From: an uncultured Candidatus Saccharibacteria bacterium
Lineage (GTDB): Bacteria; Patescibacteriota; Minisyncoccia; UBA6257; 2-01-FULL-56-20
Assembly (NCBI GenBank): GCA_964355785.1
Contig: CAYHEU010000002.1
Location: forward strand, 1-38,559
Reading direction: 5' to 3'
Length of the DNA stretch: 38,559 nt
Shown here: positions 20,685 to 26,930 of the stretch, one piece after another
Layout of the letters: each line of letters begins with the position of its first letter
Position numbering within the stretch: the first letter of the stretch is position 1
Notes under the pieces: model-generated
The model's database searches: none
Seen by the model: only the letters and a program-made list of their open reading frames with translations
What the model was told of the DNA's origin: nothing
Program-made: the position numbers and the translations under genes

Positions 20685-20761
20685 GCGGGCGTAGCTTAGC
20701 GGTCTAAAGCGCTGCCCTGTCACGGCAGAGATCGTGGGTTCAAATCCCATCGCCCGCGCCA
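20685..20761 (+). tRNA. tRNA-Asp (anticodon GTC), CCA encoded
   Basis: Acceptor GCGGGCG/CGCCCGC, D-arm TAGCTTAGCGGTCTAAAGC, anticodon stem CTGCC/GGCAG with loop CTGTCAC, T-arm GTGGG-TTCAAAT-CCCAT, discriminator G, then CCA. Confidence 0.9.
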
Positions 20762-22375
20762 TTTGAGACGAATCGAGGCAAGAGCCTCTTCTCTTGTAGA
20801 ATCCAACGGCCTTTTCCACGGTTCTAACTTTTTGTATTCCGTTTCGAGTTCTGGATAAGCATTTCCGATTGGTATGAACCATTCGTACGGAGAAATATTG
20901 AGTTTTCCGTCTTTAAGGACTGAGTTCTGACTGAACCCCTTAAGTATTTCCCGTTTTACCTCTAGAGTACCGAAAAGAAAGGCTTTATGAGCGTATAGAG
21001 CGAAGTTAAATGTCTTTTCAGTCAGTTCTAGCCATTTCTCGGCTCTCGCCTCGGTATCGCGTAAATTAGCCTTGAGTTGAAGTATTTTCTTCTCTAGCTC
21101 ACCCTTCTCTTGGAGAAAAAAATTATCGCCAATCATTTCTCGGTATCGCATTCTGATGAGTTCGTCGAGTTCGCTTTGAGTCTTCACGAGCGTCCTGTTT
21201 TGCATTTCGTAGATTTTGGTCCTATCTTCAATTTCTTTATCGTTCTGTTCGTTAAGAACTTCTAGCGCCCAATCTCTAAACTCGGGCAGAATCGTATATT
21301 TTTCAATTTCGTTTTCAATTTGCAGCTCGATATTTTCCAGCGAAACGGTTTTCCTCTGAGAACAATTAACTTCCACTTTTTTGCGGGTGCAGAAGTAATA
21401 CGTAAAACTTTTGAGCTTATTATCTCTTTTAATCAGTTTAATCTTCTCTATGGCGGTAATCATGCAATTACATTCACCACAGTGCATGCATCCCGTGAAA
21501 GCGAATATGTGTTTCTTGGGCCTAGGCTTACCCTTTCTTCCTAGTAAGACTTGAACTCTGTCAAATTCTTCAAGTGTTACAATGGGGTCATGTTTGCCTT
21601 CGTATAGGTTCCCCTTGTATTCGATAAGACCCGCATAGAATGGATTGGTAAAGATTCTATAAAGGGTGCTTCGAGACATTGGTTTGCCACCTTTCTTTTT
21701 GGTTTGTCTAGTTCTGAATCCCCATTGATTGTTAAGAATTTCAAGAATTTGTGGTGGCGTGTAGTTTCCCGTGAGCATTAAGTCCCACGCCTTGCGGATT
21801 AAATGAAAACGCTCTGGGTCATTCAGTATATAGTTTTCCCCTCGTAGTTCTGTTTTTGTGTTGAGATACCCCGAAGGAGCCGAGCCAGGAAGCCACCCCT
21901 TTTGCCGCTTTGTGTTTAGGCCTCGTTTTACCGCAACACTGCTGTCGTCCGAGTATTTTTTGGCCATTCCAAACTCAAGTTGAAGCATGAATTTGTCCTC
22001 GGGTGTGTTGCGGTAAACTCGCTGCAGAGTTTTAACTTCTACAAGTTTACTTTCATCCATTGCGGTGACTATCCACCCTCCATCAAAGGCATTTCGAGCC
22101 AACCTATTTGGATGCCAAACCAAGAGCCCTCCTGCCTTTCCCGACTCTATTTGTTGCATAACGTGGTTGAAGATAGGCCTACCGCGCTTAAAGGCACTCT
22201 GGCTTTCACCTTTCTCGCTGCCGCCGAATCTTTCAATAACCTTGAGGTGTTCACGTTTTTCTATAGCTGCTAGCTCCCTCTCTTGGTCATCAAGGGAGAG
22301 CATCTGTCTGTCTTCGCTCTCGGTGCTTTTACGGCAGTACAGAATATATTTAATTTTCTCGCTTTCTTGTTTCAT
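20720..22375 (-). CDS. Large serine recombinase (integrase)
   Basis: N-terminal resolvase domain YCRKSTESEDRQMLSLDDQ, recombinase domain, Zn ribbon CMHCGECNCMITA...C, long coiled-coil. ATG at 22375 is preferred over the track TTG at 22462. The last 13 codons and the stop lie antisense in tRNA-Asp. Confidence 0.88.
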   Translation of the reverse strand: MKQESEKIKYILYCRKSTESEDRQMLSLDDQERELAAIEKREHLKVIERFGGSEKGESQSAFKRGRPIFNHVMQQIESGKAGGLLVWHPNRLARNAFDGGWIVTAMDESKLVEVKTLQRVYRNTPEDKFMLQLEFGMAKKYSDDSSVAVKRGLNTKRQKGWLPGSAPSGYLNTKTELRGENYILNDPERFHLIRKAWDLMLTGNYTPPQILEILNNQWGFRTRQTKKKGGKPMSRSTLYRIFTNPFYAGLIEYKGNLYEGKHDPIVTLEEFDRVQVLLGRKGKPRPKKHIFAFTGCMHCGECNCMITAIEKIKLIKRDNKLKSFTYYFCTRKKVEVNCSQRKTVSLENIELQIENEIEKYTILPEFRDWALEVLNEQNDKEIEDRTKIYEMQNRTLVKTQSELDELIRMRYREMIGDNFFLQEKGELEKKILQLKANLRDTEARAEKWLELTEKTFNFALYAHKAFLFGTLEVKREILKGFSQNSVLKDGKLNISPYEWFIPIGNAYPELETEYKKLEPWKRPLDSTREEALASIRLKWRGRWDLNPRSLP

Positions 22376-22540
22376 AAACTCAAAGGGCGGTTCTGGTTGA
22401 CCCAGCCGCTTGCCCACACGGGTAGCCTTCTGGCAGAACCGCCCTTTCAGGGTAGAAGGCAATAAAAATCCGTGTGGATTTGCTTCGGCGGGTCAACGAT
22501 TCAATTGTACCACTTTTTCTCAACATATAAAAGCATCTAA

Positions 22541-24578: not shown

Positions 24579-24601
24579 ATAGTTAGTAATTTACTAACTA
24601 T
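24579..24601. promoter_or_regulatory. Perfect 23-bp palindrome (candidate operator)
   Basis: ATAGTTAGTAA-T-TTACTAACTAT lies 7 nt upstream of the start of the 23823..24572 gene, in the divergent intergenic region. Confidence 0.45.
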
Positions 24602-24861
24602 CCACGTGATGTTCAATGCCTTGCCTGACAAAGCCGTTCTTTAAAGCTTCATAAAAAAGTGGTTAAATTAGATTGAAAATTAAATATGAGCCTAAACTGC
24701 GCCAGAATGGCGTGGCAGGGCGTAAAAAAGCCCCACAAAGGTATTAAGCTCCTCGTCAGAGCACCTTTGTGGGTCATATGGGGAAACCTATATGGGTGGC
24801 CGCAAGGCCATCGCTGGCGGGGAGCTTTGTATTTAAAGGAGTCCTCCTCTAGCTCCAAGTT

Positions 24862-25860
24862 ATGGAAAGAGAAAGTTCCGAGAATAAAAATAAATCATTA
24901 CAGACAAGAGACTGGGTTGTTAGCAAGAATATTGTTGCGGGAGTTTCCCTGGTAATCGTTGTGGCAGTCTCAATTACTGCCTTAAAGATAAGCACAAACG
25001 AGCAGAAAGGAACTGATGGTGGATTTGCGCTAACAGAAGAAGAAATTACTCGAATATCAAGGTCCGTCGTTGCTGTTCAGTGTTTGTATGATGAGAACGA
25101 TGACGGACAGTGGGACGATGCTATTTATGGCTCGGGAATATATATCGGCGAAGCCTTTATCAGCAGAGAAAGAAGTAAAACCTTTGGGGAAAAATTTACT
25201 CTCTATGATGGATATGTCCTTACTAATGCACACGTCGCACAACTTAAAAGAAAATATAAAGAAAAGTATGACTATAATTTTTGCTCCATTGAAATCTCGC
25301 TACCAGAGTTAGAGCCGTCGCGACGAGGAATTTTCCCGTATGTATACGATGACAAGGCCCATTTTCTGTATGATGGTAAAGTTGACATTGCGCTCTTAAG
25401 ATTTAGTACGGTGCTTCACGGGGAAGAAGTAGTAAATGAGACAAGTAAATTGGTTAACTTCGACCAAAATCTTTTGCGCAACAACATACTTCCGTCTTAC
25501 CCGTTTTGTTCGTATGAAAGAGTTGTTGGGAAAAGAGTTTATATTTTTGGTTATCCAAGCAGTGCCTTTGAATTTGAAAAAATAGAAAGTAGTTTTTTAG
25601 AAGAGCCAACAACAATCATTGCTCAACAGAATCTAATTATTTCCGAAGGCATCATTAGTGGAGTAAACAGTAGCGGAAACTATTACACGACAGCTAGGAT
25701 TGATACGGGGAATTCTGGCGGATTGGCAATCTCAAAATCAGGCGGAGAAATTTGCTTATTGGGAGTTCCGACATGGGTAAGCGAAGGCGAATACGAGAAT
25801 CTAGGTGTTATACAGCCATTTTCTAAACTATTTACTGTTCTCCAGTCGTCTCTTGAATGA
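24862..25860 (+). CDS. Membrane-anchored trypsin-like (S1/chymotrypsin-fold) serine protease
   Basis: N-terminal TM (IVAGVSLVIVVAVSITAL). Catalytic triad contexts VLTNAHVA, VDIALLRF, DTGNSGGLA. Confidence 0.8.
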   Translation: MERESSENKNKSLQTRDWVVSKNIVAGVSLVIVVAVSITALKISTNEQKGTDGGFALTEEEITRISRSVVAVQCLYDENDDGQWDDAIYGSGIYIGEAFISRERSKTFGEKFTLYDGYVLTNAHVAQLKRKYKEKYDYNFCSIEISLPELEPSRRGIFPYVYDDKAHFLYDGKVDIALLRFSTVLHGEEVVNETSKLVNFDQNLLRNNILPSYPFCSYERVVGKRVYIFGYPSSAFEFEKIESSFLEEPTTIIAQQNLIISEGIISGVNSSGNYYTTARIDTGNSGGLAISKSGGEICLLGVPTWVSEGEYENLGVIQPFSKLFTVLQSSLE

Positions 25861-26930
25861 AATACACAGAAAAAATTAAAAGGTTAACATTTGGAGTATT
25901 TAATCTACTCGCTTTCACTGCTGTATTAGCCATAGCTTTCGGGGGGTTGCAGATTCCTTTCACAGGGGATTGGGCGTGGAACTGGATTCTTGGGTTGGTT
26001 TTCATTATTGGATTTTGGCATTTTGCGTATTCTCTTGGTCGGGATGGAAAAGACAAGCAAGTGATTCCGAGTAGGGAAGAAAATCCTCAAAACTTATCGA
26101 ACGAGAAAGCAACAGGCGAAAGGAAAGAGGGAGAAATTGTTTTCCTCCCGACTTATCGCAATCCAAGTAGCCCGAAGCCGTACTGGGAGCATGACCCAGA
26201 GGACAACTTAATCAAAGTTTTAGAAGAGCTGGAAAAAGAAGAGCAGGAAAGACCCAGAATCCTCGCGCATAAGAATCACAACGTACCCCTAATTAAGTGT
26301 AGAAAATGCAGCACCATCTATTGTCCCCTGGAAAAGTATTGCCCTGAGTGCAAGGAGGTTGATGTAAGCAACGTTGAAATTCGAGAACAATGGCGGCGCG
26401 AGTTAATAACGTTTTCCGATAACTGGGGCTCGTCAGTCGAAGACGCTATTGTGATTAGAGGTGCAGAGAGCCAATCCGAAGGGATTGCCGTCGAACATCG
26501 CTATTTACAAGGCAAATATGGTGAGCGTAGAGAAGATTGGGATTTATTGGTACAGCAACTTATCCATGACGGCGGAAGAAGCTATGACCAAATGGAGCTA
26601 TCTCTTCTGCCAGATGGCTTCAAAGAAACTTTGTATTTTGACATTACGGATTTTTTTGGTAAGCAAACGCCAGCATTGACGCGAGCAGCCGAGGAAATAA
26701 TGAGTTATAAGGACGTCGAGGATGCAGGGCGCCAACTGGTCCAAAATATGAATGCCACAAGGAAAATTTCAGAGACCCTATTTGCTGTCTACTCTTACGT
26801 GTGCGAAATTTTTGATGGGAAGCGAGGTAGGTTTTTAGAAATTGTGGCCACAATAATAGGTATAATTTTTGGTATATATTTTCTGACACTTTTCGTAGCG
26901 GTTATCTTTTGGTTATATGAGAATTTTTGA
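25857..26930 (+). CDS. Membrane protein with central Zn ribbon and a soluble domain of unknown function
   Basis: ATGA overlap with the protease stop (translational coupling). Two N-terminal TMs and one C-terminal TM. CRKCSTIYCPLEKYCPECK ribbon. Soluble domain ...AIVIRGAESQSEGIAVEHRYLQGKYG...YDQMEL...LYFDITDFFGK. Confidence 0.6.
   Translation: MKYTEKIKRLTFGVFNLLAFTAVLAIAFGGLQIPFTGDWAWNWILGLVFIIGFWHFAYSLGRDGKDKQVIPSREENPQNLSNEKATGERKEGEIVFLPTYRNPSSPKPYWEHDPEDNLIKVLEELEKEEQERPRILAHKNHNVPLIKCRKCSTIYCPLEKYCPECKEVDVSNVEIREQWRRELITFSDNWGSSVEDAIVIRGAESQSEGIAVEHRYLQGKYGERREDWDLLVQQLIHDGGRSYDQMELSLLPDGFKETLYFDITDFFGKQTPALTRAAEEIMSYKDVEDAGRQLVQNMNATRKISETLFAVYSYVCEIFDGKRGRFLEIVATIIGIIFGIYFLTLFVAVIFWLYENF

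What the first reader, a model, noticed from the sequence alone, without database searches (positions are those of the whole stretch)
24862..26930. Translationally coupled trypsin-like protease and Zn-ribbon membrane protein on the mobile element
Seen in sequence:
- The protease stop and the partner start overlap as ATGA (25857..25860).
- The protease has a clear His/Asp/Ser triad context and one N-terminal TM.
- The partner has two N-terminal TMs, a CxxC-x9-CxxC ribbon, a ~130-aa soluble domain and a C-terminal TM.

Inference: protease plus membrane-protein pairs recall protease-activated membrane effectors such as the bacterial gasdermin systems. However, the partner does not look gasdermin-like, and the protease domain may face outward. 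This could therefore be a different kind of conflict, maturation or surface-remodelling module.
Basis: partly seen in the sequence, partly recalled or inferred. Interest (0 to 1): 0.6.

Follow-up and report, generated by a model that had tools for sequence, protein, structure and literature searches.

The report
Outward protease, inward zinc-ribbon partner
Two overlapping genes on a mobile element of an ultra-small (Patescibacteria) bacterium encode a protease that sits on the outside of the cell membrane and a one-of-a-kind membrane protein whose bulk faces inside, so they are co-expressed cargo but not a gasdermin-style "protease cuts its neighbour" killing system.

Summary
ORFs 24862-25860 (332 aa) and 25857-26930 (357 aa) overlap by ATGA. 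The first is a Trypsin_2 serine protease with triad H124/D175/S285 and one N-terminal TM. The second has three TM helices, a CxxC-x10-CxxC ribbon (not x9) and a soluble domain.

- **Conservation:** the full-length partner has no relative in 1.8 billion representative proteins. Protease homologues have varied neighbours and never a partner-like gene.
- **Topology:** the protease domain is predicted outside, and the partner's soluble part inside.

Three things are new.
- The pair are the first genes downstream of a LOOT RNA (RF03000) on a tRNA-Asp-integrated serine-recombinase element. LOOT lies in 7 of 15 loci of the closest protease homologues examined (window included).
- Relatives of the protease often carry a cytoplasmic Zn ribbon in cis, or sit behind arrays of Zn-ribbon membrane genes. 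The partner may therefore supply that ribbon in trans (inferred).
- The partner's 86-aa domain belongs to a family of at least 959 clusters. It has no Pfam or NCBIfam match and no significant PDB or BFVD match.

Function is unproven. Interest is modest.

The parts
24689..24812 (+). LOOT RNA (Rfam RF03000). It ends 49 nt before the protease start codon and is the likely 5' leader or marker RNA of the element's cargo operon.
   Evidence: cmscan gives 84.5 bits against a gathering score of 46.4, E 1e-14, over the full model 1-121. The same RNA lies upstream and co-directional in 5 of the 6 other loci that have both LOOT and this protease, plus the window.
24862..25860 (+). Trypsin_2 (PA-clan, distantly HtrA-like, no PDZ) serine protease, 332 aa, membrane-anchored or secreted, with the catalytic domain outside the cytoplasm.
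   Evidence: Pfam. Alignment A1 shows an invariant triad and four invariant Cys. The nearest solved relatives are DegP/HtrA, E 6e-7.
24928..24984 (+). N-terminal signal-anchor / TM segment of the protease (residues 23-41).
   Evidence: Hydropathy and flanking charges. All homologues have an equivalent segment. Relatives L028 and L029 place a Zn ribbon before it, which fixes the N terminus in the cytoplasm.
25231..25233 (+). Catalytic His124 codon (TNAHV motif).
   Evidence: Invariant in A1.
25384..25386 (+). Catalytic Asp175 codon.
   Evidence: Invariant in A1.
25714..25716 (+). Catalytic Ser285 codon (GNSGG motif).
   Evidence: Invariant in A1.
25857..25860 (+). ATGA stop/start overlap between protease and partner.
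   Evidence: Read directly from the sequence. No SD-like sequence lies upstream. About 75 comparable overlaps occur in the genome.
25857..26930 (+). Orphan three-pass membrane protein, 357 aa (the partner).
   Evidence: ORF. The full length matches only itself in 5.8 billion and 1.84 billion protein libraries. AF2 model.
25884..26036 (+). N-terminal TM hairpin (TM1 residues 10-31, 11-aa outside loop, TM2 residues 43-60).
   Evidence: Hydropathy and the positive-inside rule: the N-terminal tail is +4/-1 and the loop carries no positive charge. The model shows helices 2-28 and 38-62.
26292..26360 (+). Zn ribbon, CxxC-x10-CxxC (residues 146-168), predicted cytoplasmic.
   Evidence: Cys positions. 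The model shows beta-hairpins. The spacing is the same as in the Zn_Ribbon_1 modules of relatives. Only a sub-threshold zf-ChsH2 hit was found, E 0.033.
26403..26663 (+). 86-aa alpha/beta domain ('domain X', residues 183-269) of a large uncatalogued family.
   Evidence: 959 representative clusters at E<=1e-3, all matching this stretch. Profile match at 26406-26663. AF2 mean pLDDT 89.7. No Pfam, NCBIfam, PDB or BFVD match.
26835..26918 (+). C-terminal TM tail anchor (residues 327-354), with only 3 residues beyond it.
   Evidence: Hydropathy, with KRGR just before the segment. The model shows helix 323-356. P0172 has the same Zn ribbon, domain X, C-terminal TM order.

Best explanation
The two genes are the first, co-transcribed and probably translationally coupled cargo genes downstream of the LOOT RNA. 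They lie on a low-GC element of about 12 kb, integrated at tRNA-Asp by a large serine recombinase, in a Patescibacteria genome.

**Gene 1** is a PDZ-less, distantly HtrA-like Trypsin_2 serine protease. An N-terminal signal anchor holds it on, or releases it from, the outer face of the cytoplasmic membrane. It would act on extracellular or surface proteins (the substrate class is inferred).

**Gene 2** is a unique fusion protein. It consists of a TM hairpin, a disordered linker, a Zn ribbon, a widespread but uncharacterised 86-aa domain, two helices and a C-terminal tail anchor. Everything soluble faces the cytoplasm.

The protease therefore cannot cut the partner's soluble domain, and the pair is not a protease-activated pore or effector system.

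The most likely relation, which is inferred and not shown, is association within the membrane. The partner would supply in trans the cytoplasmic Zn-ribbon 'handle' that many relatives of this protease carry in cis (Zn ribbon-TM-Trypsin_2). It would tether, position or regulate the external protease.

Shown in silico: the gene structure, the family assignments, the lack of pair conservation and the LOOT-element context. Predicted from sequence only: the opposite-side topology. Inferred: the physical association, the substrates, and any role in surface remodelling or exclusion.
For: **Gene structure and family.**

**Protease domain is outside:**
- The N-terminal flank is net positive and the C-terminal flank net negative.
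- Four Cys are invariant across 15 homologues. They are also present in the distant chromosomal paralogue on contig C5, which suggests disulfides.
- L028 and L029, 39-40% identical and in the same 14-row subclade, have Zn ribbon-TM-protease. So do 16 proteases of the 18-row sister clade. An N-terminal Zn ribbon with no signal peptide must be cytoplasmic.

**Partner's soluble part is inside:**
- Positive-inside charges occur at all three TM segments.
- P0172 has Zn ribbon, domain X and a tail anchor with no N-terminal signal.

**Link between the Zn ribbon and this protease family:**
- In 16 of 39 loci a CxxC-x8-12-CxxC ORF lies within 60 nt on the same strand.
- In the window's own genome only 12 of 4059 ORFs carry the motif, and only 3 of those also have a TM segment.

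**Mobile cargo context:**
- Element GC is 0.40-0.44 against 0.50-0.55 in the flanks.
- Recombinase, RepO-like and HTH genes are present.
- LOOT RNA lies directly upstream.
- LOOT lies in 6 of the 14 loci of close protease homologues that were scanned. It is upstream and co-directional in 5 of them, plus the window.
- LOOT loci often carry the same recombinase: 9 of 20.
- The protease is patchy, found in 4 of 61 related genomes.
Against: - No other genome shows this pair. The partner is a singleton, so co-evolution cannot be tested.
- The closest protease relatives work without any Zn-ribbon neighbour.
- The partner's ribbon does not reach any Pfam threshold. Its N-terminal half shows no similarity to the Zn-ribbon membrane proteins next to distant relatives.
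- Zn_Ribbon_1 is a promiscuous module, so the fusion argument is weak.
- 4-nt overlaps are common in this genome.
- Topology rests on hydropathy, charge rules and architecture logic, not on a dedicated predictor or an experiment.
- No substrate is known.
Confidence: 0.45

Rival explanations
1. Independent cargo. The protease and the membrane protein are two unrelated accessory genes that happen to be packed head-to-tail with a 4-nt overlap on a compact mobile element. They share a transcript but no function.
For: - The pair is not conserved anywhere.
- Each component occurs elsewhere without the other. The protease sits beside varied neighbours.
- Domain X is found in 80 metagenome loci with no trypsin-like neighbour.
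- About 75 comparable overlaps occur in this genome.
- The neighbouring cargo genes were also judged independent by an earlier follow-up (e1-3322427), which was not re-tested here.
Against: - The Zn ribbon recurs with this protease family, in cis or as the adjacent gene.
- Only 3 ORFs in the whole genome combine the Zn-ribbon motif with a TM segment, and one of them overlaps one of only two proteases of this family.
- The partner has no SD of its own.
Confidence: 0.35
2. Protease-activated membrane effector, gasdermin-like or abortive-infection type. The protease cleaves the partner, which then permeabilises the membrane.
For: Adjacency, overlap and mobile-element context, with HEPN-like genes downstream. 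The partner is a membrane protein.
Against: - The partner has no gasdermin or defence-family match.
- It is already an integral membrane protein with three TM helices.
- The protease domain is predicted extracytoplasmic, while all but about 14 residues of the partner's non-membrane sequence are predicted cytoplasmic.
- Adjacency is not conserved.
Confidence: 0.05
3. Site-1-protease-type transmembrane signalling, functionally like DegS-RseA or PrsW-RsiW. The external protease clips the partner's 11-residue outside loop (or its 3-residue tail). This starts release of the cytoplasmic Zn-ribbon/domain-X portion, which then acts inside the cell.
For: A membrane-anchored external trypsin-like protease lies next to a membrane protein with a cytoplasmic Zn-binding module. 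The disordered linker at residues 65-101 would suit a released fragment.
Against: - The partner exposes only about 14 residues outside.
- The protease has no PDZ or other sensor domain.
- No sigma factor or site-2 protease was seen among the element's ORFs scanned.
- The ribbon is not the ZAS HxxxCxxC type.
- No conservation supports it.
Confidence: 0.08

Closest known systems
HtrA/DegP/DegS family (MEROPS S1C) membrane-anchored periplasmic or extracytoplasmic serine proteases
   Same: PA-clan fold with an H-D-S triad and a GxSGG motif. An N-terminal membrane anchor puts the catalytic domain outside the cytoplasm. They are the nearest solved relatives by sequence profile (DegP, E 6e-7).
   Different: No PDZ domain; the protein ends at residue 332 straight after the protease domain. 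TIGR02037 scores 12.7 bits against a cut-off of 416. Four family-specific conserved Cys. Carried on a mobile element and patchily distributed.
Zn_Ribbon_1 (PF13240)-TM-Trypsin_2 proteases of Patescibacteria and their upstream arrays of Zn-ribbon membrane proteins (uncharacterised; seen here in loci L035-L062)
   Same: Homologous protease domain (25-40% identity) with the same topology. A cytoplasmic CxxC-x10-CxxC ribbon is associated with the protease, and the genes are tightly packed and co-directional.
   Different: In the window the ribbon sits on a separate, downstream, three-TM protein that also carries domain X. That ribbon does not reach the Pfam threshold. The partner shows no detectable homology to the array proteins.
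Bacterial gasdermin plus protease defence systems
   Same: A protease gene next to a membrane-acting protein gene in a mobile or defence context.
   Different: No gasdermin fold or family match. The partner is a constitutive integral membrane protein. The protease is predicted outside the cell. The pair is not conserved.
LOOT-RNA-bearing serine-recombinase integrative elements of CPR bacteria
   Same: tRNA-adjacent large serine recombinase, low GC, and a LOOT RNA at the head of a variable cargo run.
   Different: Here the cargo directly behind LOOT is a protease plus an orphan membrane protein. Other elements are reported to carry restriction or Avs-type genes. None of 20 other LOOT loci examined carries this protease.

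Membership tests
Pfam Trypsin_2 / PA-clan serine protease | Profile match above the curated threshold | tested here: met
   PF13365 scores 37.7 bits against 27.6. PF00089 scores 22.3 against 20.6.
Pfam Trypsin_2 / PA-clan serine protease | His-Asp-Ser catalytic triad in that order, with a GxSGG serine motif | tested here: met
   H124 (TNAHV), D175 and S285 (GNSGG) are invariant in 15 homologues.
HtrA/DegP/DegS (S1C) | One or two C-terminal PDZ domains | tested here: not met
   No PDZ hit. The protein ends about 45 residues after the catalytic Ser.
HtrA/DegP/DegS (S1C) | Family-level profile match (TIGR02037) | tested here: not met
   12.7 bits against a cut-off of 416.2. Only weak local similarity to DegP chains.
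Bacterial gasdermin system | Partner has the gasdermin fold or family match and is soluble until cleaved | tested here: not met
   No Pfam or PADLOC match. Three predicted TM helices and a Zn ribbon. No PDB fold match.
Bacterial gasdermin system | Protease and substrate domain lie in the same compartment | tested here: not met
   The protease domain is predicted outside and the partner's soluble region inside. This is prediction only.
Bacterial gasdermin system | Conserved adjacency of protease and effector across genomes | tested here: not met
   The partner is a singleton. Protease neighbours vary.
Zn_Ribbon_1 (PF13240) module | CxxC-x10-CxxC ribbon that matches the profile | tested here: inconclusive
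   The spacing is identical to Zn_Ribbon_1 modules in relatives. The partner has no PF13240 hit; its only ribbon hit is zf-ChsH2, E 0.033. The mini-homologue P0172 does hit PF13240, E 4e-5, 23.6 bits against 25.
LOOT-bearing serine-recombinase element | LOOT RNA above the Rfam gathering score | tested here: met
   84.5 bits against 46.4.
LOOT-bearing serine-recombinase element | Large serine recombinase next to a tRNA gene, with composition distinct from the flanks | tested here: met
   Resolvase, Recombinase and Zn_ribbon_recom domains in ORF 20720-22462. tRNA at 20685-20758. GC 0.40-0.44 against 0.50-0.55. Homologous recombinases lie within 8 kb of LOOT in 9 of 20 other loci.
DegS-RseA / PrsW-RsiW type regulated proteolysis | Substrate has an extracytoplasmic domain for site-1 cleavage and a cytoplasmic anti-sigma domain | tested here: not met
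   Only an 11-residue loop and a 3-residue tail are predicted outside. There is no ZAS motif and no anti-sigma family hit.
DegS-RseA / PrsW-RsiW type regulated proteolysis | Cognate sigma factor and site-2 protease | not tested
   None was seen among the element ORFs scanned. The whole genome was not searched for them.

The most novel reading that the evidence does not exclude
Inside-out gating. The partner is a cytoplasmic sensor. Its Zn ribbon and the uncharacterised 86-aa domain would detect an intracellular cue such as invading DNA, another element or stress. Through its three TM helices it would switch the co-translated external protease on or off. The mobile element could then strip or remodel surface structures such as pili or receptors, to exclude competing phages or elements, or to change attachment to the host cell. 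This would be a new kind of two-component exclusion device, and it would give the orphan domain family its first function. The secreted domain-X/serpin operons seen in another lineage would then point to a general link between this domain and control of serine proteases.
Probability: 0.08. Interest if true: 0.7.

Novelty: new variant of a known kind. Interest (0 to 1): 0.3.

Why it matters
As a candidate defence or effector system the finding does not hold up, and saying so keeps a false gasdermin analogue out of the catalogue. Three by-products may be useful.
- A membrane-anchored, PDZ-less protease family is recurrent cargo of LOOT-RNA elements in Patescibacteria. This adds to the picture of what these uncultivated episymbionts exchange.
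- The family is repeatedly tied to cytoplasmic Zn-ribbon modules, either in cis or through arrays of neighbouring genes. This hints at an unstudied way of organising exported enzymes from the inside.
- The partner contains a confidently folding 86-aa domain with about a thousand representative clusters. It has no database entry and no significant structural neighbour, so it is a good target for family curation and structure determination.

Tried and rejected
- **Defence and phage libraries.** PADLOC and PHROGs gave nothing for either protein.
- **Fold searches.** The domain model against PDB and BFVD, and the full partner model against PDB, gave no match at E<=0.001. The best hits have TM-scores of 0.09-0.4, for example RadD at 0.09.
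- **Cas9 HNH resemblance.** Residues 183-229 resemble the NmeCas9 HNH domain weakly, E 0.03-0.2. I rejected this because the family profile does not find it and the HNH catalytic residues are absent.
- **Protease plus small HEPN gene as the real conserved pair.** Rx4H proteins follow the protease in L006, L019, L064 and L199. I rejected this for three reasons:
  - These proteins share no significant pairwise similarity in the all-against-all BLAST. One two-sequence comparison gave E 0.001 over the motif only.
  - The bare motif is expected by chance in roughly one protein in six of this size. That figure is my own estimate from residue frequencies.
  - Pfam finds no HEPN family in the two I scanned, the L006 and L019 proteins.
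- **Domain X as a general protease-associated module.** No trypsin-like neighbour was found in 80 metagenome loci. One lineage pairs it with a serpin, which I keep only as a lead.
- **Homology of the partner's N-terminal half to the Zn-ribbon membrane proteins beside distant protease relatives.** None was found.
- **Phage origin of the protease.** No INPHARED hit and one distant IMG/VR hit.
- **Literature.** Searches for a described Zn-ribbon/trypsin module in CPR found nothing relevant. The LOOT paper's text held no details on the motif.
Full report
**1. The observation**

The ORF listing and the raw sequence confirm two plus-strand ORFs, 24862-25860 (332 aa) and 25857-26930 (357 aa). They share ATGA at 25857-25860.

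The first ORF matches Pfam Trypsin_2 above threshold (37.7 bits against 27.6) and Trypsin. In an alignment with 14 homologues, H124, D175 and S285 (GNSGG) are invariant, and so are four cysteines: C74, C141, C216 and C298. One hydrophobic segment spans residues 23-41.

The second ORF has hydrophobic segments at 10-31, 43-60 and 327-354, and a ribbon C148xxC151-x10-C162xxC165. The AF2 model shows:
- helices at 2-28, 38-62 and 323-356;
- a disordered stretch at 65-101;
- small hairpins at the ribbon;
- a compact domain followed by two helices.

No Shine-Dalgarno-like sequence precedes the partner's ATG, which fits re-initiation coupling. Such 4-nt overlaps are common here, about 75 between long ORFs in the 851-kb genome. 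The overlap shows co-expression, not partnership.

**2. Context**

The genes lie in a low-GC stretch (0.40-0.44 against 0.50-0.55 in the flanks). This stretch begins at a tRNA (20685-20758). On the minus strand it carries a large serine recombinase, an HTH protein and a replication-O-like protein.

An Rfam scan found a full-length LOOT RNA (RF03000) at 24689-24812 on the plus strand: 84.5 bits against a gathering score of 46.4. It ends 49 nt before the protease start. The two hairpins that another first-stage note described at this spot are stems of this RNA.

LOOT occurs in 77 of 401 sampled Patescibacteria genomes. In 20 LOOT loci fetched with 8-kb flanks, 9 carry a homologue of the window's recombinase and none carries the protease. 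Earlier notes of this scan had independently described "LOOT elements" with variable, often defence-type cargo. My counts agree with that picture.

The protease and partner are thus the first cargo genes behind LOOT on such an element. No plus-strand terminator was detected between LOOT and the end of the partner gene.

**3. Is the pair conserved?**

No.
- The full-length partner finds only itself in the 5.8-billion-protein collection.
- It also finds only itself in an exhaustive phmmer search of 1.84 billion representatives. All 959 hits at E<=1e-3 that I could inspect match residues ~183-269 only.
- The partner is absent from 60 related genomes, and a profile of its domain finds no match in 400 other genomes of the phylum.
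- The protease has homologues at 33-46% identity but is patchy: 4 of 61 related genomes.

The neighbours of the protease homologues differ from locus to locus. They include:
- an S8 peptidase;
- an XRE-type HTH gene;
- a LexA-like gene;
- a HicAB-like pair;
- a methylase S subunit with a reverse transcriptase;
- a type III methylase-like gene;
- small helical proteins.

None of these loci has a partner-like gene.

**4. Topology**

For the protease, three lines of evidence place the catalytic domain outside.
- The N-terminal flank is net positive and the flank after the TM segment is net negative.
- All homologues have short, Lys-rich N termini followed by one hydrophobic segment.
- Two members of the window's own subclade, L028 and L029 (39-40% identity), begin with a Zn ribbon ([22 protein letters not shown]...) followed by the TM segment and the protease. 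Sixteen proteases of the 18-row sister clade have the same layout.

An N-terminal Zn ribbon with no signal sequence is cytoplasmic, so the protease domain must be outside. The four invariant cysteines recur in the distant chromosomal paralogue on contig C5, which fits disulfide bonds.

For the partner, the charges are consistent at every segment. The N-terminal tail is +4/-1. The 11-residue loop between TM1 and TM2 has no positive charge. KRGR precedes the last TM segment, and only three residues follow it. The mini-homologue P0172 has a Zn ribbon at residue 3, then domain X, then a C-terminal TM, with no signal peptide. In that protein the same module order must be cytoplasmic.

The protease domain and the partner's soluble region are therefore predicted to lie on opposite sides of the membrane. 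These are predictions. No dedicated topology predictor was available.

**5. The Zn-ribbon theme**

I surveyed 39 genome loci that encode relatives of the protease. In 16 of them a CxxC-x8-12-CxxC ORF lies within 60 nt on the same strand. Often it is the last of two to five such genes. Pfam identifies these as Zn_Ribbon_1 membrane proteins with TPR, DUF2569 or Zn_ribbon_15 parts, and the protease in those loci carries its own N-terminal Zn_Ribbon_1.

For comparison, only 12 of 4059 ORFs in the window's genome have the motif, and only 3 also have a TM segment. One of those three is the partner.

The tree shows that the array-linked proteases form one clade, so this is a single conserved operon type. 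The window's protease belongs to the other clade. That other clade nevertheless contains the cis-fused L028 and L029. This is the only positive evidence for a functional link between the window's two genes: the ribbon that relatives carry in cis may be supplied here in trans.

The argument is weak to moderate, for three reasons. Zn_Ribbon_1 is promiscuous. The partner's ribbon reaches no Pfam threshold. The partner's N-terminal half shows no similarity to the array proteins.

**6. The 86-aa domain**

Residues 183-269 belong to a family with at least 959 representative clusters. Among the 171 members I examined:
- about half are stand-alone proteins of about 90-135 aa with no TM segment;
- about 30% have an N-terminal signal or TM segment;
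- some contain two or three tandem copies;
- a few have a C-terminal tail anchor or a Zn ribbon.

Fusions to TPR repeats and an RNase_H_2 domain also occur. The family has no Pfam or NCBIfam model and no PDB sequence relative.

AF2 folds it confidently (mean pLDDT 89.7) as two short strands, a helix and a three-stranded sheet. Foldseek finds nothing significant in PDB or BFVD. It is nearly absent from plasmids (one Salinibacter hit) and absent from phages.

In 80 metagenome loci no trypsin-like gene lies nearby. In one lineage (9 loci in 4 groups) a secreted domain-X protein overlaps a serpin gene. That is a second, independent brush with serine-protease biology, but too thin to build on.

**7. 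Interpretation**

The gasdermin-type model requires a soluble, cleavable effector in the same compartment as the protease, and a conserved pairing. All three features were tested and not met.

A DegS/RseA-like site-1 model would need an external substrate domain. The partner exposes about 14 residues outside.

Two readings remain.
- **Tether or regulator in trans (my preferred reading).** The partner associates with the external protease within the membrane and provides the cytoplasmic Zn-ribbon handle.
- **Independent cargo.** The two genes share only a transcript.

I put the composite preferred statement at 0.45 and independent cargo at 0.35. What the protease does outside the cell is inferred only. 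Possibilities include surface remodelling, exclusion of competing elements or phages, and protein scavenging for an auxotrophic episymbiont. The family is absent from reference phage genomes.

**8. Novelty and score**

The protease is a new, mobile-element-borne member of a known enzyme kind. The split arrangement with a trans-encoded ribbon protein is at most a new variant of an uncharacterised but recurrent architecture. The partner is an orphan.

Nothing here is very surprising to a specialist, and no open question becomes directly testable. I score interest at 0.3. The uncatalogued domain family, the Zn-ribbon gene arrays and the LOOT linkage are worthwhile side observations.

Noticed in passing
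window 24689-24812 (+); also L027:2664-2780, L003:4357-4487, L033:3528-3642, L026:111-235, L036:164-281, L032:4103-4228: LOOT RNA (RF03000) sits directly upstream of the protease. It recurs on the same strand in 6 of the 14 loci of close protease homologues that were scanned, and lies upstream in 5 of them. LOOT is present in 77 of 401 Patescibacteria genomes. 9 of 20 LOOT loci have the serine recombinase within 8 kb, and none of the 20 has the protease.
   Followed up: partly
L059:1544-5966, L047:1951-5726, L040:2856-6107, L043:3005-6080, L035:2759-5564, L038:3053-6170 and others: Conserved Patescibacteria operon. Two to five consecutive genes for Zn_Ribbon_1 membrane proteins (some with TPR, DUF2569 or Zn_ribbon_15) are followed by a Zn_Ribbon_1-TM-Trypsin_2 protease. 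It occurs in 16 of 39 loci, and the 16 proteases all fall within one 18-row clade. I found no description of it in the literature searched.
   Followed up: partly
window 26403-26663 (partner residues 183-269): An 86-aa alpha/beta domain family with at least 959 clusters at 50% identity. Members are stand-alone, secreted, tandem, TPR-fused or tail-anchored. The family has no Pfam, NCBIfam, PDB or BFVD counterpart, although AF2 models it confidently (mean pLDDT 89.7).
   Followed up: partly
L124:4008-6535, L149:3328-5126, L153:4764-6562, L156:308-1971, L157:185-2697, L159-L161, L174:1491-5128: In one metagenomic lineage a secreted domain-X protein, alone or fused to TPR repeats, overlaps the start of a serpin gene (PF00079, E 2e-115). 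This suggests a possible link between the domain and control of serine proteases.
   Followed up: partly
L006:6962-7444, L019:1103-1573, L064:1839-2312, L199:1052-1711: Small helical proteins with an Rx4H (HEPN-like) motif lie directly downstream of several protease homologues. They share no significant similarity in the all-against-all BLAST, and the two scanned (L006, L019) have no Pfam HEPN hit. The pattern may be chance.
   Followed up: yes
L098 (first ORF after LOOT), L113 (first ORF after LOOT), L028:4773-6368, L029:4659-6311: A distinctive ribbon subtype, MKKCPxCAEE[IV]xDxAxxCKHC followed by a TM segment, heads the first cargo gene after LOOT in two other elements. It also forms the N terminus of the two cis-fused proteases closest to the window's.
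   Followed up: no
window 24579-24601: A perfect 23-bp palindrome (ATAGTTAGTAA-N-TTACTAACTAT) lies 7 nt from the start of the minus-strand module, between it and LOOT. It is a likely operator of the divergent promoters.
   Followed up: no
own genome contig C5:29348-30283 (-): A chromosomal paralogue of the protease (311 aa). It has a TM anchor, a coiled-coil spacer, the same triad motifs and the same four cysteines. No Zn-ribbon-motif ORF was found anywhere on that contig.
   Followed up: partly
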